Shown here: positions 421 through 31,515 of the stretch, in pieces | How the letters are laid out: every line of letters starts with the position of its first letter | How positions within the stretch are numbered: position 1 is the stretch's first letter | IMG/VR virus record: IMGVR_UViG_3300009082_000021 | Location: 4,080-68,079 of that record | Strand: one strand, 5' to 3' | Length of the DNA stretch: 64,000 nucleotides | DNA from: a virus | Notes under the pieces: model-generated | The model's input: only the letters and a program-made list of their open reading frames with translations | Told to the model about the DNA's origin: nothing | The model's database searches: none | Made by a program: the position numbers and the translations under genes

Positions 421-494
421 TGGCTCTGGGACCCGGATTCGAACCGAGAAGAGGTGGTTAACAGCCACCCATGATACCATTTCATCATCCCAGA
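421..494 (-). tRNA. trnN: tRNA-Asn(GTT), CCA encoded
   Basis: Acceptor TCTGGGA/TCCCAGA, anticodon arm GGTGG-CTGTTAA-CCACC, T-loop TTCGAAT. Confidence 0.92.
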
Positions 495-525
495 ACGGGC
501 GCTACTACCTCTGAGCTACACCGGA
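495..525 (-). pseudogene. tRNA 5' remnant (acceptor strand + D arm)
   Basis: TCCGGTGTAGCTCAGAGGTAGTAGCGCCCGT is a typical tRNA 5' third and abuts tRNA-Asn. Confidence 0.6.
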
Positions 526-543
526 ATGATCTGGGGAGGGGGA

Positions 544-729
544 CTACTGGACGATGGGAGCTGCGTCTACGACCGCGGCCTCTTTGACCACGGATGCTTC
601 CTTGGCCACCGAGGCTTCCACCTGGACAGATGCCTCAACCTTGGGTCCAGCGTCCGGTTTGGGAACGACGGTGTCGTCGCTGCAAGCCACGAAGAACAGA
701 CTGAGAATGATCGCTAGTGTTAGTCTCAT
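544..729 (-). CDS. Small lipoprotein
   Basis: SD GGAGG; hydrophobic signal and lipobox FVAC; low-complexity VEASV/KEASV repeats. Confidence 0.75.
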   Translation of the reverse strand: MRLTLAIILSLFFVACSDDTVVPKPDAGPKVEASVQVEASVAKEASVVKEAAVVDAAPIVQ

Positions 730-765
730 GGATTCCTCCTGTGCCCTGAGGATAGCACAACTCGG

Positions 766-839
766 TCGGGATGAGAGGATTTGAACCTCCGACCCCCTGG
801 TCCCAGGCCAGGTGCGCTACCAGGCTGCGCTACATCCCG
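766..839 (-). tRNA. trnP: tRNA-Pro(TGG)
   Basis: CGGGATG acceptor; anticodon arm CCTGG-CCTGGGA-CCAGG (C33); followed by CCG rather than CCA. Confidence 0.88.
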
Positions 840-842
840 AAG

Positions 843-913
843 ATCCCCCGGCAGGAATCGAACCTGCGTACCTGGGGCCAAAGTCCAGGGCCCTACCATT
901 AGACGACGGGGGA
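843..913 (-). tRNA. trnQ: tRNA-Gln(TTG)
   Basis: TCCCCCG/CGGGGGA acceptor, loop CTTTGGC, T-loop TTCGATT. Confidence 0.85.
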
Positions 914-918
914 AGAAG

Positions 919-991
919 TGGAGAGGACAGGAATCGAACCTGCATGTCGGCTTTTTCAGAGCCGCGCCGTGACCACGTAGGCTACCTCTCC
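919..991 (-). tRNA. trnF: tRNA-Phe(GAA)
   Basis: GGAGAGG/CCTCTCC acceptor, CGGCT-CTGAAAA-AGCCG. Confidence 0.88.
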
Positions 992-1050
992 AGGAGCCCC
1001 ACCAGTCTCCGCTCAAAAGGAACTTCACAGACCCATGGAGCTGCGCGCGG

Positions 1051-1122
1051 TGGGCACGGAGGGAATCGAACCCTCATCACCCGGTTATGAGCCAGGGGCT
1101 TGCACCCTCCAGCTACATGCCC
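1051..1122 (-). tRNA. tRNA-Met or Ile2 (CAT)
   Basis: GGGCATG/CGTGCCC acceptor, loop CTCATAA. Confidence 0.85.
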
Positions 1123-1260
1123 ACGATGTGGCTGGGAGATCATCGCCTTGCGGCTCCTTCCCAGCCTGACCACAACCTCACTATTCTCGTGTCAATCACC
1201 ACCGGAGACGCTGGGGATACGGCCTCAGCTCCCGTCCTGATTCTCCCAGGACGTCTCCAA

Positions 1261-1335
1261 TGGTTCGGGGACGAGGACTCGAACCTCGTAGTGCGGATCC
1301 AGAGTCCGCCGGTTTGCCTGGTAGCCTATCCCCGA
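1261..1335 (-). tRNA. trnQ: tRNA-Gln(CTG), CCA encoded
   Basis: TCGGGGA/TCCCCGA, GCGGA-CTCTGGA-TCCGC. Confidence 0.9.
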
Positions 1336-1336
1336 G

Positions 1337-1408
1337 TGGGTGCGAAAGGAGTCGAACCTTCAACCTCGTGGTTAAGAGCCACTTGCGCTCCCATTGCGCC
1401 ACGCACCC
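1337..1408 (-). tRNA. trnK: tRNA-Lys(CTT)
   Basis: GGGTGCG/CGCACCC, GTGG-CTCTTAA-CCAC. Confidence 0.9.
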
Positions 1409-1409
1409 A

Positions 1410-1625
1410 TTACCATTTCACAGCCTCATCCGCTTCGAACGTGACCTCCATCTCCAGTTCCACCACCCTGTTCAGGAACTTCCTCTTCGGCTTCGTGCCA
1501 CCGGCAGGAGTTGAACCTGCAACCTCGGGAGTAAAAGTCCCTTGCTCTTCCAGTTGAGCTACGGAGGCGGGTCTCTGAGACTCTGCCTCGCGTTTCAACC
1601 GCCAATCGAACTCTCTGATCGTCAT
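1410..1625 (-). CDS. Hypothetical 71-aa ORF containing tRNA-Lys(TTT)
   Basis: Good SD (GGAGG-CAAC-ATG); the frame stays open through the tRNA. Confidence 0.4.
   Translation of the reverse strand: MTIREFDWRLKREAESQRPASVAQLEEQGTFTPEVAGSTPAGGTKPKRKFLNRVVELEMEVTFEADEAVKW
1496..1568 (-). tRNA. trnK: tRNA-Lys(TTT)
   Basis: GCCTCCG/CGGTGGC acceptor (1 mismatch), TAGCTCA D arm, GGGA-CTTTTAC-TCCC. Confidence 0.82.
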
Positions 1626-1636
1626 GTTGCCTCCAG

Positions 1637-1714
1637 TGGAGCGGGGAGGACTCGAACCTCCGCGTGGTGTGCCTGGGTTACAGCCAGGTGCCGTCGCCGC
1701 TGGGCCACCGCTCC
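1637..1714 (-). tRNA. trnY: tRNA-Tyr(GTA)
   Basis: GGAGCGG/CCGCTCC, CCTGG-CTGTAAC-CCAGG, about 10-nt variable region. Confidence 0.88.
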
Positions 1715-26152: not shown

Positions 26153-26410
26153 ATGAAGTGTGGAGTCGTACCCGGCTCTGCCTTGTCCTTCGGATGGGAG
26201 GCCAAGGTTCAGCTTTTCGCATCCGAGCACGGCATCAAGATCGACAGCAAGGAGAAGTACCAGCAGGTTCGGGAGCTGATGGCACTCATCAAGCAGATCG
26301 ACAAGCTCACTGCCAAGCACGTAGACATCGCCCTCGAACTCGGGTCAGCCCGGCAGAAGAGGGACAAGCTCAAGCTCGCTCTGGACTGGAACAGGAAGGA
26401 AGAACCATGA
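26153..26410 (+). CDS. Hypothetical coiled-coil protein
   Basis: SD GAGGAGG. Confidence 0.7.
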   Translation: MKCGVVPGSALSFGWEAKVQLFASEHGIKIDSKEKYQQVRELMALIKQIDKLTAKHVDIALELGSARQKRDKLKLALDWNRKEEP

Positions 26411-26754
26411 GCCCCACGTTCACCACGACAGGACTCGACTTCTCCGCCCAGGACGTGGATAAGACCATCCAACTGAACGTGTCCTGGTGGCAGCGTTTGA
26501 AGTACCTCTTCCTCCGCCACATCCTCCGCCGGGATGTGGACCCGCCCGGTCTGTTCATCATCACCGAGGTGAAGACCTGGAGCGTGACGATCGAGCCCGC
26601 CTACATCTGTCGAGGTTGCAAGAGAACAGTCCCTTGGAGCATGGGTGCCGCAGATCACCACCCAGAGCTCTGCGATGACTGCTACGCTGCCCTCGACTGC
26701 CCCACCTGCAAAGCCCGCTCAGGATCACCATGCGATGGTGGTCTCCACGGATAG
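26407..26754 (+). CDS. Hypothetical Zn-finger protein
   Basis: CRGC...VPW..GA.D...LCDDC. Confidence 0.7.
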   Translation: MSPTFTTTGLDFSAQDVDKTIQLNVSWWQRLKYLFLRHILRRDVDPPGLFIITEVKTWSVTIEPAYICRGCKRTVPWSMGAADHHPELCDDCYAALDCPTCKARSGSPCDGGLHG

Positions 26755-26762
26755 CCCCACCT

Positions 26763-26790
26763 GAAGAGATCAAAACTTGATCTCTTCTTT
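26763..26790 (+). terminator. Intrinsic terminator ending the early operon
   Basis: GAAGAGATCAA/TTGATCTCTTC + TTT. Confidence 0.8.
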
Positions 26791-26791
26791 A

Positions 26792-26799
26792 GGTATAAG
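26792..26799 (+). promoter_or_regulatory. Phage promoter GGTATAAG driving the non-coding array
   Basis: ATAAGAGCCTTG is identical to the promoter copy at 8668. Confidence 0.65.
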
Positions 26800-27184
26800 A
26801 GCCTTGCCACGAGATACACACTTATTGATCTGGGAGACGCTAGATAGCGTGTGGTGTCGGAGGGTAATACGACGGAGGTCCTGGGTGTAGGGGCCGAGCA
26901 ACGTCCGGCTGCCTTGGTACTGAACAAGGGGCGGTCGGTGGAACATGGTGGCGTCAGGACTGTGGGTATGCGGCGCGGGACAGGCTGTGGGTAGCAGCGG
27001 CCGATAGGAAGTCTGGGGTGGCGATGAACAGTCCATCGGAGCAATCGGGGCGATGGAAGATGTGGGGTAGAGCAAGCCTGTTGGATCTATCTGGCACATG
27101 GCCTTGCTCATTTCTGGGGATCTGTGGGTACAAGAGGCCGAGGGACATGTTGTCTATTGTGCGGCGGGCTGGTGGGAAATGATC

Positions 27185-27243
27185 TTCAGCGGTTCGTCCG
27201 CGTGTCTCAGGTGTTCCTCGACCTGAGAAGAATCTCGAGAGGG
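27185..27243 (+). repeat. Structured repeat, copy 1
   Basis: TTCAGCGGTTCGTCCGC + stem TCTCAGGT/ACCTGAGA + AGAATCTCGAGAGGG. Confidence 0.9.
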
Positions 27244-27608
27244 CAGCCTTCCTGTCTGTGTTGGAGGAGGTCTGAACGCCGAAGTGTTCAAAGTCTGGGG
27301 AAGGGCAAGCCTGTTGGAAAGAAGCGTCGAGGTAGCTGCGATCTCACTCAGGTGGGCCAGAGTATCGCTGCGAGGGAGGGGCGTATGGAAGGCAAGAATG
27401 GATGCATGACGGAAAGTCTTCTAGGGAGCATGTCGAGGCGCATTGGCGCGAGTCGGTCTGATGCAAGGTGGGAGAGTAGATGCCTTGCTTGTCTGTACCG
27501 TCAGAGGGCGGGTTATGGAATGGTCAGGTGGTGGAGTCGGTAGGCACTGCTGGGTGGATGCAGTCCAGTGGGTAGTCAGTTTCGGATGGATGCACGCGTG
27601 GCATTTGT

Positions 27609-27669
27609 TTCAGCGGTTCGTCCGCGCGTCCTGGGAGACCCCTCGGACCCAGGAAGAATCTCGAGAGGG
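27609..27669 (+). repeat. Structured repeat, copy 2
   Basis: TTCAGCGGTTCGTCCGC + stem TCCTGGG/CCCAGGA + AGAATCTCGAGAGGG. Confidence 0.9.
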
Positions 27670-27924
27670 ATCATGTTCGTCTGAAGGCAGGTAGGGAAGA
27701 TCGTGGGTAGGGAGGGGATGGCTTCCGCACGAAAGATTGAACTCAAACTGTCTATAGAATTGGGGCGACGGTAGGAGAGAAGGTGGTCCAGGGAGGAGGT
27801 AGTAGGATCATAGCTACCTTCGGCATGTCGGGGCGGCGGAGATAGAGTAGTGGCGGGCGTGGGTGGAGACGAGGGTCGTAGTTTCCTGGGGGTGGGTATC
27901 AGATCGGGATTGCTCGATCTTTTC

Positions 27925-27941
27925 TTCAGCGGTTCGTCCGC
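27925..27941 (+). repeat. Structured repeat, copy 3 (17-mer core)
   Basis: TTCAGCGGTTCGTCCGC followed by a different hairpin (27955-27985). Confidence 0.88.
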
Positions 27942-28012
27942 ATTCCTTTCACAGGCTTGGGCACTCACTGGGGAGTTGTCCAAGCTACAACAATGATCAG
28001 TCGGAGGATCAG

Positions 28013-29203
28013 ATGCAACCAGCTACGCCCGAAGGCCGGCAATCCGCTGGCAAACCGAGTGGAACCAACAAGGAGACGAGGCCGGGTGGGAATGGCCACG
28101 GGGTGAGGGTGGAAGGCATCAAGTTCACCAAGAAGGACAACTGGCTCGACTTCCTCCTGGTCCTGGCCTACGACATCGGCTCTAGGGGCCAGGCCACCGT
28201 GAGCGATGTGCTCCACGATGTGGAGATCAAGTTCAACTGCACCTTCCACGGCAACCGGGGGCTGAACATGGTCTCGGACGGGCTCGAGGCCCTCCGCAAG
28301 CAGGACCTCCTCGCAGAAGCCCAGAACGCTGACGGGCAGGGCGTGTTCTCCCTGAAGCGCATCAAGTTCAACTGCAACCCGGCCCTGGTCTCCATGAAGG
28401 CCATGATCGAGGAGCTGAAGTCGGACTCCACGGGCATGCTCATCATCGAGCGGTTCACCGCGGGGGAGGGAGCCAAGCAGGTCAAGGAACGGCCCGAGGA
28501 GCCGGCGGACTTCCTCATCGAGTACCTGCTGCTGTGGCCCATCCTCGGCTCCCAGGTCTGGGCTGGGAACCTCTACCTCCAGGAGATGTACTTCGCCCTG
28601 GGGAAGTACCTCACCCTTCACGAGACCAACCCGGACGGCACCATCAAGCTCGACAAGAACGGCAACAGAGTCATGAAGGAGGAGTTCTCTGATCACACGG
28701 ACGTCCCCCTCATGTTCGAGCGTGGAACGGATTGCATCGTGGCGGCTCACACTGCCACCATCTCCGGCTTCCTCGAGAAGGCGTTCGAAGCCTTCCCGCC
28801 CTCCACCTACGCCAAGAGGGGTTATCAGGCGAGAGAGTTCATCGGCAGCGCCCCCATCGTGATCAATCCGCCATCCATCACCATCGAGAAGAAACCCGTC
28901 ATCCGCAATGAGAAGGGTGTGGGGCAGGGAGGGCAAGCGTGCGGCCTTCGCAACTACGAGGTGATCAAACCGGGGGTTCAGCTCACCCTCGAGATCGCGT
29001 GCTGCACCAAGAACTTCATCACCCCGCCCGAGATGTACAAGTGGCTCAAGCGTGTGCTGCGGATGCCGATCCGCTCCATGTCCCCAGCCAGAGGCAAGCA
29101 GACGGGCGGAGCCAAGCTCTTGAGCCTGAAGTATCGTCCCTGGTCCTCCGACAGCGACGACTACCAGGAGGTTCCCGATCCCAGAAACGGGGCCTCCAAG
29201 TAG
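28013..29203 (+). CDS. Solo RAMP/Cas7-like RNA-binding protein with an N-terminal wHTH
   Basis: SD GGAGG. RAMP-like motif order: YLLLWPILGS; FER...HTATISGFLEKA; YEVIKPGVQLTLEI; G-loop SPARGKQTGG. Confidence 0.65.
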   Translation: MQPATPEGRQSAGKPSGTNKETRPGGNGHGVRVEGIKFTKKDNWLDFLLVLAYDIGSRGQATVSDVLHDVEIKFNCTFHGNRGLNMVSDGLEALRKQDLLAEAQNADGQGVFSLKRIKFNCNPALVSMKAMIEELKSDSTGMLIIERFTAGEGAKQVKERPEEPADFLIEYLLLWPILGSQVWAGNLYLQEMYFALGKYLTLHETNPDGTIKLDKNGNRVMKEEFSDHTDVPLMFERGTDCIVAAHTATISGFLEKAFEAFPPSTYAKRGYQAREFIGSAPIVINPPSITIEKKPVIRNEKGVGQGGQACGLRNYEVIKPGVQLTLEIACCTKNFITPPEMYKWLKRVLRMPIRSMSPARGKQTGGAKLLSLKYRPWSSDSDDYQEVPDPRNGASK

Positions 29204-29485
29204 GACTGCGTAGGGGGTAGGAAGGGTATTCTGTGGGACGGGCCTATGGTCGGGATGCGTTGTAGCGCGGATGAATGTGGGTGATGGGACTTGTTGGGCT
29301 GGATGGATCCCGGAGTAATGGAGGGGCGGCTCGCTCGGCAAGATGATCGGAAGAGGGAGTTCGTCTTGAAACGATGTGCCGATGGACATGCCCAGTGCCG
29401 GGAGGCGGGAAGGATGGAATGAGTTGCGGCTTGGATTCTAGTGACTACCGCTCTTCGGAGCGCACTCACGGCTGGCGCCCGTGAG
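29204..29485 (+). ncRNA. Fourth G-rich non-coding unit with two terminal hairpins
   Basis: G-skewed like the upstream units; CGCTC-TTCG-GAGCG, then CTCACGG/CCGTGAG. Confidence 0.55.
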
Positions 29486-29497
29486 GAAGTCTGAGCC

Positions 29498-29524
29498 AAG
29501 CCGGGGATCATCCCCGGCTTCTTT
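29498..29524 (+). terminator. Intrinsic terminator
   Basis: AAGCCGGGGA/TCCCCGGCTT + CTTT. Confidence 0.8.
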
Positions 29525-30575
29525 AGCCCTGATCCAGACGTGACCAACCCACCTTGTTGATCCAGTTCACCACATACTTCATCTTGATCTCTGCTGTGTC
29601 CTCTCCGGTCATCCGGTAGGACTCGATGAGGTCAGCCTTCTTGAGCCCCTCCAGGAACATCTCGTACTGAGACGGCCCTTCCAGCCCTCGACATCTCTCT
29701 TGCAGTTCGTTCCAACACTTGAGGCAGTAAGGCTCCGGCTTGCTTGTCTTTGGGTTCATCTTCTTGATGGGGGCTACCCCAGACTCTCCATGCTTCTCAC
29801 AAATCACGGTGCCTTTCCTTTCTGGATGCAGAGTCATCGTCTCTGCCTCTTCCGCCCTCTGTCCCGGCTCACATGGGGATTGGCAGGGCATGTGGCCTTG
29901 GACAGCATAGATACTGAAATGGGGGCCGCGCATCAGTCCATAGATCTTCCCCGCCTTCAGGAGCTTCTCTCGGTCCCTTGCTGTAGAGGTGAAGGACTGG
30001 ATGCTCTCCAGCACCGCACCATCAGCAGTGACGAGGGTTACCCCATTCATCTCTGTCCCCGGCTTGGCCTTGTCCACGTGGAGCTTATGCGTGATGTCCT
30101 CAGTGATGATGCACTGCGGGCAGTAGACATCTCCGTTCGTATTGGGCTCGGCTGTGACCTCACCATGCTTCTCACACTTGATGATCATTGCGCGCCTCCA
30201 TTCGTAGTCCTTGCAGAACGCTTCTTGCTCCGCGAGACCCCACCTGAGCACCGCCTGGTTGGCCTCACGGAACAGCTCCAGTGGGATGCCGCCGCTTTCC
30301 CTCTCCAGCAGCAGTCGCTGGCGATCAGCGTTCTGGTAGCTCATCATGCGCTGCTCGTGGTTCACCGGGATGGCCTCTCCGTACTTCCAGCCAGTGCAAG
30401 CAGCACGATCGAAACGCTCAGTCTGAGAATGGTAACGAGCCCAGAGATAGAGGGCTCTTTCCCAGAGCTCATCTGGCACTTCGTAGAAGCTCTTCGATCT
30501 GAAGAGGCTGTTCTTCAGATACTCATCGGTCTCCTCACGTGAGGTCAAGATCTCTCCTTGGAATCGGCGCGTCAC
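29523..30575 (-). CDS. Hypothetical protein with two CEKHGE...YCxxC Zn modules (possible internal start at 30188)
   Basis: GTGA overlap with the upstream gene; internal SD GGAGG before MIIKCEKH. Confidence 0.65.
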   Translation of the reverse strand: MTRRFQGEILTSREETDEYLKNSLFRSKSFYEVPDELWERALYLWARYHSQTERFDRAACTGWKYGEAIPVNHEQRMMSYQNADRQRLLLERESGGIPLELFREANQAVLRWGLAEQEAFCKDYEWRRAMIIKCEKHGEVTAEPNTNGDVYCPQCIITEDITHKLHVDKAKPGTEMNGVTLVTADGAVLESIQSFTSTARDREKLLKAGKIYGLMRGPHFSIYAVQGHMPCQSPCEPGQRAEEAETMTLHPERKGTVICEKHGESGVAPIKKMNPKTSKPEPYCLKCWNELQERCRGLEGPSQYEMFLEGLKKADLIESYRMTGEDTAEIKMKYVVNWINKVGWSRLDQG

Positions 30576-30763
30576 CTCGGGAACCTCCTCTCGATGAAGT
30601 CGATCAGGATGATGAAGAGGGCCGTGAAGATGCCCATTGTGTACCACCAGGTCGATGGCAATCCCCACATGATCTCGGCTGGACGGAAGAGAAGACTGTA
30701 GAGCGCCCAGATGATCACCAAGTAGGGCGTCAGACGTTGAAGGAAGTTCAGGATGGGCGTCAT
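30572..30763 (-). CDS. Small two-TM membrane protein
   Basis: ATGA overlap; hydrophobic. Confidence 0.7.
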   Translation of the reverse strand: MTPILNFLQRLTPYLVIIWALYSLLFRPAEIMWGLPSTWWYTMGIFTALFIILIDFIERRFPR

Positions 30764-31515
30764 GGAAGTGACCACTGTGGTGTAGGGTCTGGGCTCGCCC
30801 AGTCCAGCGGTTCTGAGAGAGCCAAGATCTGTGCGTACTCCTCCAGGTACTTCTGAGCCACCTCCATGCTCTCGATGAAGACAGCGTTCTCGAACGAGGC
30901 GCCAGAGTTCCTGGTGATGTTGAATGAGCCTGTCCAGACCGCCACGGGATGGAGATCGCAGAGTGTGCCGGCCGCCCCCGTGCGGTTCCACTGGCAGAAC
31001 ACGAGGAACTTGTTGTGTGCCTTGGGAGCCACCGTCTTCTTCTTGGACTGGGCATGAACACCCAGACACCGAATTGGATCGATGAGGCTGGCGCCGGTCC
31101 CCATGTCGCAGATGGGCGGGCACATCCAGCGGTGCTGGATGACAGGCTTGATGCTAAGGTAGGTAGCCCTCATCTTCACCTTCCAGTCCGTGTAGCTCGT
31201 CCTGACCCCACGATCTGGTCGCCAGAGATCTTCTTTCTGAACCACCAGGCTTACTCCCTCTCTGTGCCGAAGCTCATACAAGAAGTCCCGTGAGGTCAGC
31301 CATGCGATCGAGCCCACCACCACGGGGTACTGGGCCGTGATGTACAGCAACTCCTGCTCGATGTTGCGGAAGAAGACGGAGACAGACTTGATGCCTTGTA
31401 CATCTACGCTCCCGTTCAGATTCCGGAGGGGACGACTGGGACCGCTTCGGCTGGAGATGCGAAGTTTGTTGAGGTCCGTGTCGCAATCCCAAGAGGGGTT
31501 GTTGCTGTAGGTCAC
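30760..31515 (-). CDS. Phospholipase D-like nuclease domain protein
   Basis: IAWLTS...HNKFLVF...VWTGSFNIT...ENAV. Confidence 0.85.
   Translation of the reverse strand: MTYSNNPSWDCDTDLNKLRISSRSGPSRPLRNLNGSVDVQGIKSVSVFFRNIEQELLYITAQYPVVVGSIAWLTSRDFLYELRHREGVSLVVQKEDLWRPDRGVRTSYTDWKVKMRATYLSIKPVIQHRWMCPPICDMGTGASLIDPIRCLGVHAQSKKKTVAPKAHNKFLVFCQWNRTGAAGTLCDLHPVAVWTGSFNITRNSGASFENAVFIESMEVAQKYLEEYAQILALSEPLDWASPDPTPQWSLP

What the first reader, a model, noticed from the sequence alone, without database searches (positions are those of the whole stretch)
27185..27985. Conserved repeat with a covarying hairpin and possible pseudoknot punctuates the array
TTCAGCGGTTCGTCCGC (small GCGG/CCGC hairpin) occurs exactly at 27185, 27609 and 27925, spaced 424 and 316 nt apart. 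In copies 1 and 2 the next stem changes sequence but keeps pairing (TCTCAGG/CCTGAGA vs TCCTGGG/CCCAGGA). Both keep CCTCG in the loop and end in an identical AGAATCTCGAGAGGG, whose GAGGG can pair with the loop (U/C)CCUC. Compensatory changes point to selection on RNA structure, such as a processing site, RAMP loading handle or nuclease-resistant cap. The spacers are far too long for CRISPR.
Basis: partly seen in the sequence, partly recalled or inferred. Interest (0 to 1): 0.82.

Follow-up and report, generated by a model that had tools for sequence, protein, structure and literature searches.

The report
Hairpin module bounding phage RAMP-linked RNAs
A short two-hairpin element repeated in a large phage marks the boundaries of G-rich non-coding stretches with a four-base rhythm that flank a gene for a Cas7-like RNA-binding protein, so the locus looks like an undescribed variant of the recently reported viral VIPR guide-RNA systems.

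Summary
The 17-mer occurs exactly three times, and copies 1 and 2 share a 59-61 nt module whose 7-bp stem differs by three compensatory pairs. I found a diverged further module at 29446-29500 with the same architecture. Across the three full modules, 7 of 11 stem pairs change on both sides and all 33 cells stay Watson-Crick. The proposed pseudoknot is not better than chance.

Three of the four stretches have a significant 4-nt G periodicity (GNNN). They have no 5-nt periodicity. A related, complete 192-kb phage with one family member carries four cleaner GNNN tracts.

The closest known system is VIPR (2026 preprints): a phage RAMP plus pentanucleotide-repeat guide RNAs with a structured 3' tail. 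My best reading is that the repeat is the structured boundary element (cap or processing signal) of RAMP-bound guide-like RNAs in a VIPR-like system with a tetranucleotide unit. No binding, RNA ends or targets are shown.

The parts
26763..26790 (+). Intrinsic terminator of the upstream 115-aa gene (GAAGAGATCAA / TTGATCTCTTC, then TTT)
   Evidence: Perfect 11-nt inverted repeat I25; sequence
26792..26800 (+). Promoter-like motif GGTATAAGA at the head of the array
   Evidence: GGTAYAAGA occurs 6 times in the window against 0.19 expected. It occurs 5 times in L030, upstream of genes, and 22 times against 4 control matches in G001. Promoter function is inferred.
26804..27184 (+). G-rich non-coding stretch g1, with weak 4-nt G phasing. 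Its last tract, 27036-27184, has G at unit position 1 in 20 of 37 units and C in 0.
   Evidence: G 39%, C 19%. No codon periodicity. Period 4 is not significant here (56 of 500 global, 107 of 500 local shuffles). Unit table.
27127..27135 (+). Second promoter-like motif GGTACAAGA, 50 nt upstream of module M1
27185..27243 (+). Module M1. Hairpin A is GCGG-UUCGU-CCGC (27189-27201). Linker GUG. Hairpin B is UCUCAGG / CCUGAGA (27205-27228). Tail is AGAAUCUCGAGAGGG.
27244..27608 (+). G-rich non-coding stretch g2 with GNNN phasing. G at unit position 1 in 23 of 35 units (27312-27451) and 18 of 27 units (27500-27608).
   Evidence: Period-4 G power is reached by 1 of 500 (global) and 0 of 500 (local) shuffles. 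Unit table.
27609..27669 (+). Module M2, with the same architecture. Hairpin B is UCCUGGG / CCCAGGA.
27670..27900 (+). G-rich non-coding stretch g3 with GNNN phasing. G at unit position 1 in 17 of 25 units (27670-27773), C in 0.
   Evidence: Period-4 power is reached by 0 of 500 (global) and 11 of 500 (local) shuffles. Unit table. In the 99%-identical relative L011, 88 nt of this stretch are replaced by 27 other nt.
27901..27924 (+). Terminator-like hairpin AGATCGGG-ATTG-CTCGATCT followed by TTTTC
   Evidence: z -2.76. It is not conserved in L011.
27925..27941 (+). Copy 3 of the 17-mer. Only hairpin A is present. It forms the start of the 5' leader of the RAMP gene.
   Evidence: Model R1 gives E 0.008, owing to the 17-mer alone. 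Conserved in L011 from GATCTTTTC onward.
27954..27986 (+). Leader hairpin upstream of the ribosome-binding site GGAGGA (28003-28008)
   Evidence: z -2.85. L011 carries two changes that weaken it, so it is not supported by covariation.
28013..29203 (+). Gene for a 396-aa protein. Residues 1-35 are basic and disordered. Residues 44-152 form a PadR/BlaI-like winged helix. Residues 162-391 form a Cas7-like RAMP domain with a conserved SPARG..G loop.
29204..29445 (+). G-rich non-coding stretch g4. One phase-coherent GNNN tract at 29205-29424, with G at unit position 1 in 39 of 55 units.
   Evidence: Period-4 power is reached by 0 of 500 (global) and 0 of 500 (local) shuffles. Unit tables. Identical in L011.
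29446..29500 (+). Module M4, diverged. Hairpin A is GCUC-UUCG-GAGC (29450-29461). Linker GCA. Hairpin B is CUCACGG / CCGUGAG (29465-29485). Tail is GAAGUCUGAGCCAAG.
   Evidence: An architecture scan finds only 27189, 27613 and 29450 in 64 kb on both strands, and 0 hits in 40 shuffles. Pair table. The two-sequence covariance model did not find it.
29500..29522 (.). Terminator hairpin GCCGGGGA-TCA-TCCCCGGC followed by TTCT, between the array and the convergent minus-strand gene that ends at 29523
   Evidence: Sequence; ORF list

Best explanation
The repeat is the structured boundary module of an array of guide-like RNAs that belongs with the adjacent gene.

The locus (26792-29522, + strand) is transcribed from a phage promoter. 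It contains four G-rich, C-poor stretches built of 4-nt units with G at the first position (GNNN). The first, second and fourth are each followed by a two-hairpin module. The third is followed by a terminator-like hairpin and the first 17 nt of the module.

The gene in the middle encodes a winged-helix plus Cas7-like RAMP fusion. By analogy with Cas7 backbones and with VIPR filaments, I infer that RAMP protomers line up along the phased tracts, one per unit, holding the phased G and presenting the other three bases.

I further infer that the module either caps and positions the end of the filament while protecting the RNA end, or marks where the long transcript is cut into units.

Shown here: the repeats, the covarying stems, the periodicity, the protein fold, the presence of fragments in RNA libraries, and the same kind of tracts in a related phage. 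Inferred: protein-RNA binding, one protomer per 4 nt, processing, and any target recognition.
For: 1. There are three exact 17-mers, confined to this locus.

2. Three full modules share one architecture. A 4-bp stem closes UUCG(U), followed by a 3-nt linker, a 7-bp stem and GAA.UCU.GAG. This architecture is found nowhere else in 64 kb on either strand and in 0 of 40 shuffles.

3. Two of 4 pairs in hairpin A and 5 of 7 pairs in hairpin B change on both sides. All 33 cells are Watson-Crick.

4. The flanking stretches are non-coding, G 39-40% and C 15-20%. They have period-4 G power that is reached by 1, 0 and 0 of 500 shuffles in g2, g3 and g4. Period 5 is not significant.

5. Seven of the 8 strongest period-4 windows of the whole record lie in this locus.

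6. The gene product has a Cas7-like RAMP fold with a conserved glycine-rich loop, plus a PadR-like winged helix.

7. An independent complete phage, G001, holds one family member. All 12 of its strongest period-4 G windows fall in four non-coding tracts 6-12 kb downstream of that gene, on the same strand. G sits at unit position 1 in 51 of 61, 31 of 36, 25 of 31 and 34 of 46 units, reached by 0, 0, 0 and 18 of 1000 shuffles.

8. Modules are kept while neighbouring tracts differ. A DNA contig of run X8 matches only 27183-27243, with 2 differences and unlike flanks. L011 and X8 replace 88 nt of g3 but keep copy 3 and the gene.

9. Fragments 26919-27190, 27432-27764, 27151-27296, 27463-27613, 27656-27914 and 27928-28076 occur at 100% identity in contigs of two metatranscriptome runs of one study.

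10. Published VIPR systems have the same logic. They pair a phage RAMP with G-phased tandem-unit RNAs carrying a structured 3' tail and pseudoknot, with one protomer per unit. Some arrays have structured ribozymes between units. I read the Results and parts of the Methods of 10.64898/2026.04.26.720920 and passages of 10.64898/2026.04.26.720927.

11. The distance in phase from the upstream tract to the module is the same in 3 of 3 modules. This is my arithmetic; chance is about 1 in 16.
Against: 1. No experiment or read-level data show that the protein binds these RNAs, or where the RNAs begin and end. RNA-run contigs give no strand, and DNA carry-over is not excluded.

2. Three RNA-contig ends (27190, 27613, 27928) lie 3-5 nt inside the 17-mer. 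That fits a cut 5' of hairpin A, so the module may be a 5' leader of the next unit rather than a 3' tail. Other contigs bridge M1 and M2 whole.

3. The defining pentanucleotide repeat of vrRNAs is absent.

4. g1 has no significant periodicity.

5. The family shows no sequence similarity to either protein of the SUSP1 VIPR locus.

6. In G001 the tracts are not next to the RAMP gene. They have their own promoters and terminators, and model R1 finds no M1/M2-like module there. The module is therefore lineage-specific.

7. The two phages are related (shared promoter motif; about 70-74% nucleotide identity in some genes). They count as little more than one observation of the association.

8. The covariance model built from M1 and M2 did not retrieve M4 among 42 matches at E <= 10. 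M4 was recognised by eye, and the scan that confirms it was defined afterwards.

9. M1 and M2 do not fold more stably than shuffles.

10. The pseudoknot is not supported.
Confidence: 0.58

Rival explanations
1. The modules are general RNA stability or processing elements of a phage non-coding transcript, with no functional tie to the RAMP protein. They could be stable UUCG-type hairpins that stop exonucleases, or sites where a host RNase (E, III or similar) cuts a polycistronic small-RNA precursor. On this view the G-phased RNAs act in some other way, for example as sponges or decoys.
For: RNA-contig ends fall at the 5' base of hairpin A in all three copies. A U-rich single-stranded stretch lies just upstream of each 17-mer. 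In G001 the phased tracts lie 6-12 kb from the RAMP gene as separate genes. Copy 3 would give the RAMP mRNA a 5' hairpin.
Against: This does not explain why the tracts flank the RAMP gene on both sides here. It does not explain why phased G-rich tracts were found in both phage genomes examined that carry a family member. It also does not explain the close formal parallel to VIPR RNAs.
Confidence: 0.2
2. The module is a small self-cleaving RNA that separates the units. It would be the functional equivalent of the hammerhead ribozymes that lie between vrRNAs in some VIPR arrays.
For: Hammerhead-interspersed vrRNA arrays are reported (10.64898/2026.04.26.720920, Results and the legend of fig. S19). 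The module has two conserved helices plus a conserved single-stranded motif (GAA.UCU.GAG). RNA-contig ends lie at one fixed place in the module.
Against: No Rfam family matches at gathering score in the window, and none of the ribozyme families matches at E <= 10 in 26600-29700. CUGA is present in M1 but not in M2, so a hammerhead core is not conserved. Some contigs bridge whole modules.
Confidence: 0.08
3. The 17-mer is a DNA site: an operator for the winged-helix domain, or part of a phage promoter. The hairpins would be incidental inverted repeats.
For: GCGG-N5-CCGC is a palindrome of the kind bound by dimeric winged-helix proteins. Copy 3 lies 88 nt upstream of the gene's start codon. The protein has a PadR-like domain.
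Against: M4 keeps the pairing but not the sequence of both inverted repeats. That is the signature of a folded single strand rather than of a protein-DNA site. All copies lie on one strand. Sequences upstream of the three 17-mers share no promoter-like element. The promoter motif of this phage group is a different one.
Confidence: 0.07

Closest known systems
VIPR systems (Vipr RAMP protein plus vrRNAs), e.g. type II of Escherichia phage SUSP1. Sources: bioRxiv 10.64898/2026.04.26.720920, 10.64898/2026.04.26.720927 and 10.64898/2026.10.15.759431.
   Same: Both are phage-encoded. Both have a RAMP-fold protein outside any CRISPR-cas locus. In both, the gene is flanked by long non-coding stretches on the same strand. 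In both, the RNAs are made of short units with a fixed G and variable bases, are C-poor, and adjoin a conserved structured element. The SUSP1 locus shows all this in its own sequence.
   Different: The unit here is 4 nt (GNNN), not 5 nt. The texts I read list YNNGG, NNNGG, YNNNG and NNNNG only. Tracts here have about 25-60 units, against 9-16. The RAMP here is fused to a PadR-like winged helix (396 aa, against the 195- and 146-aa products of the two SUSP1 locus genes; which of the two is Vipr was not determined), and no separate accessory gene stands beside it. There is no detectable sequence similarity to the SUSP1 proteins. The structured module has two hairpins, and its pseudoknot is unproven.
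Class 1 CRISPR-Cas backbone proteins (Cas7 family: Csm3, Cmr4, Csf2, type VII Cas7, Cas7-11) with crRNA repeat-derived handles
   Different: There is no CRISPR array. Module spacing is 316-424 nt and Tandem Repeats Finder reports nothing. Pfam, PHROGs and PADLOC find no other cas gene among the neighbours tested. The intervening RNA is itself periodic. Cas7 proteins bind 6-nt units.
Hammerhead-interspersed vrRNA arrays (VIPR types I and V; legend of fig. S19 of 10.64898/2026.04.26.720920)
   Same: A conserved structured RNA lies between adjacent guide units of one transcript.
   Different: There is no match to any Rfam ribozyme model. Self-cleavage is untested.
Type IV-B Csf2 filaments on heterogeneous non-CRISPR RNA (PMC7937560; abstract seen in the listing)
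   Same: A Cas7-like protein is thought to coat RNA that does not come from a CRISPR array.
   Different: In that case no dedicated RNA genes or periodic sequence are known. Here, dedicated phased tracts flank the gene.

Membership tests
VIPR | RAMP-fold protein (RRM core, glycine-rich loop, thumb) encoded outside a CRISPR-cas locus | tested here: met
VIPR | Encoded by a virus or provirus | tested here: met
   IMG/VR virus record. Tail sheath, large terminase and major head protein are present.
VIPR | Protein belongs to the Vipr clade (PSI-BLAST or phylogeny from X1U2U4) | tested here: inconclusive
   hhalign of the 72-sequence family profile against the two SUSP1 locus proteins gives probabilities of 0.4 and 0.1. 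RAMPs are known to lack sequence similarity. The seed sequences and Data S4 could not be obtained.
VIPR | vrRNA made of tandem pentanucleotide units (YNNGG, or NNNGG, YNNNG, NNNNG) | tested here: not met
   No lag-5 GG autocorrelation. Period-5 power is not above shuffles in g1, g2 and g4, and marginal in g3 (23 of 500). The same scan gives 3.8 on the SUSP1 vrRNAs as a positive control. Period 4 is found instead.
VIPR | Invariant structured tail at the 3' end of each guide tract | tested here: inconclusive
   A conserved two-hairpin module follows g1, g2 and g4, in constant register. However, RNA-contig ends suggest it may stay with the downstream RNA. No read-level ends are available.
VIPR | Pseudoknot in the tail (SUSP1 clade) | tested here: inconclusive
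   Loop-tail helices of 4-5 bp exist in all three modules. Equal or longer ones arise in 264, 174 and 887 of 2000 shuffles.
VIPR | Accessory vap gene in an operon with vipr | tested here: not met
   No second ORF lies between the flanking tracts. A winged-helix domain is instead fused to the RAMP.
VIPR | RNA-guided double-stranded DNA binding by a gapped code | not testable with these tools
   Only own-genome and L030 searches were possible. The best match was 18-22 of 30 positions, the same as controls.
CRISPR-Cas (class 1) | CRISPR array of short direct repeats with spacers of about 20-70 nt | tested here: not met
   Module spacing is 424 and 316 nt. Tandem Repeats Finder reports 0 rows.
CRISPR-Cas (class 1) | Further cas genes (cas5, cas6, cas10, cas11, cas1, cas2) beside the Cas7 | tested here: not met
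   No such Pfam or PHROGs hit in the 8 neighbouring products tested, and no PADLOC hit in the 4 window products tested. Only one family member per genome. Distant RAMPs could be missed by sequence.
Rfam families, including self-cleaving ribozymes and CsrB/Rsm-type RNAs | Match to the family covariance model | tested here: not met
   Only 9 tRNAs reach gathering score in the window. At E <= 10 in 26600-29700 there are only two sub-threshold matches: SorX at 18 bits against a gathering score of 46.6, and sR42.

The most novel reading that the evidence does not exclude
A third register of RAMP-guided recognition. A winged-helix plus Cas7-like fusion would polymerise on long (GNNN)n RNAs at one protomer per four nucleotides. 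It would hold the phased G and present three contiguous programmable bases per unit. That code is distinct from CRISPR class 1 (5 paired, 1 flipped) and from VIPR (2 paired, 3 held). The two-hairpin module would act as the assembly or processing signal that divides one transcript into several guides.
Probability: 0.33. Interest if true: 0.9.

Novelty: new variant of a known kind. Interest (0 to 1): 0.74.

Why it matters
VIPR was described only in 2026. It is proposed as the viral ancestor of CRISPR effector proteins and as a new way to program DNA recognition.

A second family would show that the unit length of such codes is evolvable. This family has at least 102 clusters at 50% identity, all from metagenomes. 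It combines a RAMP fused to a DNA-binding domain with a four-base unit.

It would also give a second natural design for gapped guide RNAs to compare with VIPR, and would widen the set of phage RAMPs that bear on the origin of CRISPR.

The boundary module itself would be the handle needed to define, express and reprogram such guides.

Tried and rejected
**CRISPR-repeat mimic (RNA anti-CRISPR idea).** I searched for two exact copies of the 13-nt hairpin at 40-70 nt spacing in 185,579 prokaryote genomes. This gave 17 loci. All are tandem repeats in G+C-rich DNA that look like coding repeats, with no shared flanks. None is a CRISPR array.

**Motif searches in IMG/VR.** The exact 17-mer gave 7 loci, all chance matches without shared flanks. 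The hairpin plus the tail motif gave 0.

**Rfam.** Nothing relevant.

**CsrB-like GGA sponge and R-loop replication origin.** I considered both because of the G-richness. I dropped them once the 4-nt phasing and the RAMP fold were found. Neither was tested directly.

**Pentanucleotide vrRNA repeats.** Absent.

**Simple tandem repeat or microsatellite origin.** Tandem Repeats Finder found 0 rows.

**Covariance model from M1 and M2.** It does not find M4 or any module in G001.

**Homologous loci.** IMG/VR scans with the protein, A1, A6, P0010 and P0014 found none. A4 and A5 were too diverse for the tool. tblastn against GenBank phages gave only E >= 0.3, and blastn gave none.

**Shorter stand-alone forms of the RAMP domain.** None by the word-based search.

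**PADLOC and NCBIfam.** No hits. Pfam on 72 family members gave only two single-member weak hits.

**Self-targets.** Skip rules 0, 1 and 2 in the phage's own genome and in L030 gave no match above controls.

**First fold with 6 sequences.** It was poor (pLDDT 59).

**The 412-aa convergent neighbour.** The protein atlas gave no usable hit.

**Parts of the locus without cover in the RNA runs.** These show nothing either way.

Full report
**Observation**

The 17-mer TTCAGCGGTTCGTCCGC occurs exactly at 27185, 27609 and 27925 on the + strand. None of 100 shuffles gave as many matches, and the whole 68-kb virus record holds no further copy.

Copies 1 and 2 extend to a 59-61 nt module. It consists of:
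- a small hairpin A, GCGG-UUCGU-CCGC;
- a 3-nt linker;
- a 7-bp hairpin B, which differs between the copies at three pairs, each changed on both sides;
- an identical AGAATCTCGAGAGGG.

Copy 3 shares only the 17-mer. Taken singly, M1 and M2 do not fold better than shuffled sequence (z -0.41 and -0.09).

**Setting**

The window is part of an IMG/VR phage record estimated to be 37% complete. It encodes a tail sheath, a large terminase, a major head protein, a helicase and a tRNA array.

The repeats lie in a gap without codon periodicity that is G 39-40% and C 15-20%. The gap starts directly after a terminator at 26763-26790 and a promoter-like motif, GGTATAAGA, at 26792. That motif occurs:
- 6 times in the window against 0.19 expected;
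- 5 times in L030, upstream of genes;
- 22 times against 4 control matches in the related phage G001.

The gap ends at a gene (28013-29203) with unusually high third-position GC (0.81-0.95). A fourth stretch of the same composition follows the gene (29204-29445) and ends at a terminator shared with a convergent gene.

**A further module**

At 29446-29500 I found, by eye, a diverged copy of the module:
- hairpin A, GCUC-UUCG-GAGC;
- linker GCA;
- hairpin B, CUCACGG/CCGUGAG;
- then GAAGUCUGAG.

A covariance model built from M1 and M2 alone did not list it among 42 matches at E <= 10. I then scanned for the bare architecture: a 4-bp Watson-Crick stem closing UUCG or UUCGU, 2-4 nt, and a 7-bp Watson-Crick stem with a loop of 5-13 nt. 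This finds only 27189, 27613 and 29450 in the 64 kb on both strands. All three are followed by GAA.TCT.GAG. The scan found nothing in 40 block shuffles. The scan was defined after I had seen M4, which weakens it as a test.

Across the three modules, 2 of 4 pairs of hairpin A and 5 of 7 pairs of hairpin B change on both sides, and all 33 cells remain Watson-Crick.

However, helices of that length arise in 264, 174 and 887 of 2000 shuffles. I treat it as unproven.

**The gene**

The 396-aa product has no Pfam, PHROGs, PADLOC or NCBIfam match. It belongs to a family of at least 102 cluster representatives (E <= 0.001) in a library of 1.84 billion proteins. All 20 representatives looked up are known only from metagenome assemblies.

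With a 72-sequence alignment, AlphaFold2 gives pLDDT 90.9. With 6 sequences it gave 59.
- Viral RAMP-annotated models come up in BFVD.

The most conserved residues form an SPARG..G loop between the last helix and the last strand. That is the position of the RAMP glycine-rich loop; this placement rests on general knowledge of the fold.

**The 'spacers' are periodic**

The literature search led to the VIPR preprints. They describe phage RAMPs (Vipr) that polymerise on vrRNAs. These RNAs are made of 9-16 pentanucleotide units (YNNGG, with NNNGG, YNNNG and NNNNG variants), followed by a conserved structured 3' tail. In the SUSP1 clade the tail includes a pseudoknot that caps the filament.

I therefore tested periodicity.
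- A period-5 signal is absent here. The same scan scores the SUSP1 vrRNAs far above the rest of that genome.
- Period 4 in G is the top spectral peak of g2, g3 and g4.
- It is reached by 1, 0 and 0 of 500 dinucleotide-preserving shuffles in those three stretches, but by 56 of 500 in g1.
- It accounts for 7 of the 8 strongest windows of the whole record.
- In register, units read GNNN. G at position 1 occurs in 39 of 55, 23 of 35, 18 of 27 and 17 of 25 units, with C nearly absent there.
- Tandem Repeats Finder sees no repeat, so this is a phased composition and not a microsatellite.

**Independent genome**

One distant family member, P0049 (21% identity), lies on a complete 192-kb phage with terminal repeats, G001. 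That phage shares the promoter motif and has about 70-74% nucleotide identity in some genes. It holds one family member.

All 12 of its strongest period-4 G windows, and 11 of its 12 highest GC-skew windows, fall at 90.7-96.8 kb. That is 6-12 kb downstream of the gene on the same strand, in non-coding stretches that end in terminators.

G at unit position 1 occurs in 51 of 61, 31 of 36, 25 of 31 and 34 of 46 units. These are reached by 0, 0, 0 and 18 of 1000 shuffles.

There the tracts are separate genes, and no M1/M2-like module is found. This suggests that the module of the present phage does the work that promoters and terminators do in G001: it divides one transcript.

**Variation and expression**

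A DNA contig of run X8 matches only 27183-27243, with 2 differences and unlike flanks. L011 and X8 keep copy 3, the gene, g4 and M4 but replace 88 nt of g3 with 27 other nt. Modules are therefore conserved while tracts turn over.

Contigs of two metatranscriptome runs from one study hold six fragments of the non-coding region at 100% identity. This does not prove transcription, and it gives no strand.

Three of their 12 ends (27190, 27613, 27928) lie 3-5 nt inside a 17-mer. By my own rough arithmetic that is unlikely by chance (order 1e-3, post hoc). It fits a cut at the 5' base of hairpin A. Two contigs span whole modules.

**Reading**

The most economical account is a VIPR-like system in which the repeat is the structured boundary element of guide-like RNAs for the adjacent winged-helix plus Cas7-like protein.

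For a 3' tail: each of g1, g2 and g4 is followed by a full module in the same register (3 of 3), g3 is followed by the 17-mer, and VIPR has a 3' cap.

For a 5' leader or cut site: the contig ends fit this, and in G001 one tract is directly preceded by a UUCG hairpin.

I cannot decide between these two. Protein-RNA binding, one protomer per 4 nt, and target recognition are inferences. A search of the phage's own genome and of L030 under three skip rules found nothing above controls.

**Novelty**

The kind of system is in print (three preprints, 2026). In the main texts I read or searched there is no tetranucleotide unit, no PadR mention and no fusion mention. The supplements that list all types were closed. 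No sequence link to the SUSP1 proteins could be shown.

I therefore file this locus as a new variant of a known kind. It fails the pentanucleotide criterion for membership in VIPR as defined, while working, as far as can be inferred, like it.

Noticed in passing
window 424-1714 (- strand): An array of 9 tRNA genes at the start of the window (Rfam tRNA, 47.7-65.1 bits).
   Followed up: no
window 6692, 9840, 22647, 26792, 27127, 31784; L030 1988, 2437, 4449, 4946, 6344: GGTAYAAGA is strongly over-represented: 6 against 0.19 expected in the window, 5 against 0.11 in L030, and 22 against 4 control matches in G001. It mostly lies 30-60 nt upstream of start codons, often just after terminators. It is probably the -10 region of a promoter class shared by this group of large phages.
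   Followed up: partly
window 28013-29203: Third-codon-position GC of the RAMP gene is 0.81-0.95, against about 0.66-0.79 in neighbouring genes. This hints at high expression or a separate origin for the module.
   Followed up: no
window 26962, 26987, 27124, 27568, 27703, 27892: GTGGGTA occurs 6 times within the G-rich stretches, against 2 other + strand copies in 64 kb. One copy overlaps the promoter-like motif at 27127. The others are unexplained.
   Followed up: partly
L035 14544, 14748, 15199, 16239 (G001 94.5-96.2 kb): A palindrome CAACAG-NN-CTGTTG recurs 4 times beside the GNNN tracts and promoter motifs of G001, and is absent from the window. It may be an operator or a hairpin at the start of those RNA genes.
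   Followed up: no
L035 16500-16735 (G001 96.5-96.7 kb): This is the most G-rich stretch of G001 (G 41%, C 15%). It has no period-4 signal (551 of 1000 shuffles) but contains repeated GGTGTATCC and GGGTGTATG motifs. It is a different kind of G-rich non-coding RNA, lying next to the phased ones.
   Followed up: no
window 30760-31515 (- strand) and 29523-31061 (- strand): The convergent operon next to the locus encodes a weak PLD-like domain protein (PF13091, E 2e-5, below the family cut-off). It also encodes a protein of about 412-512 aa with no detectable family. Whether they belong to the system is unknown.
   Followed up: partly
window 26407-26754 (+ strand): The 115-aa product just upstream of the array has paired Cys motifs (CRGC ... 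CDDC ... CPTC) that suggest a zinc ribbon. There is no confident family match (only one weak PHROGs hit of unknown function, E 0.007).
   Followed up: no
window 29459-29525: There is a sub-threshold Rfam match to SorX (18 bits against a gathering score of 46.6, E 0.57) over module M4 and the terminator. I take it as chance.
   Followed up: no
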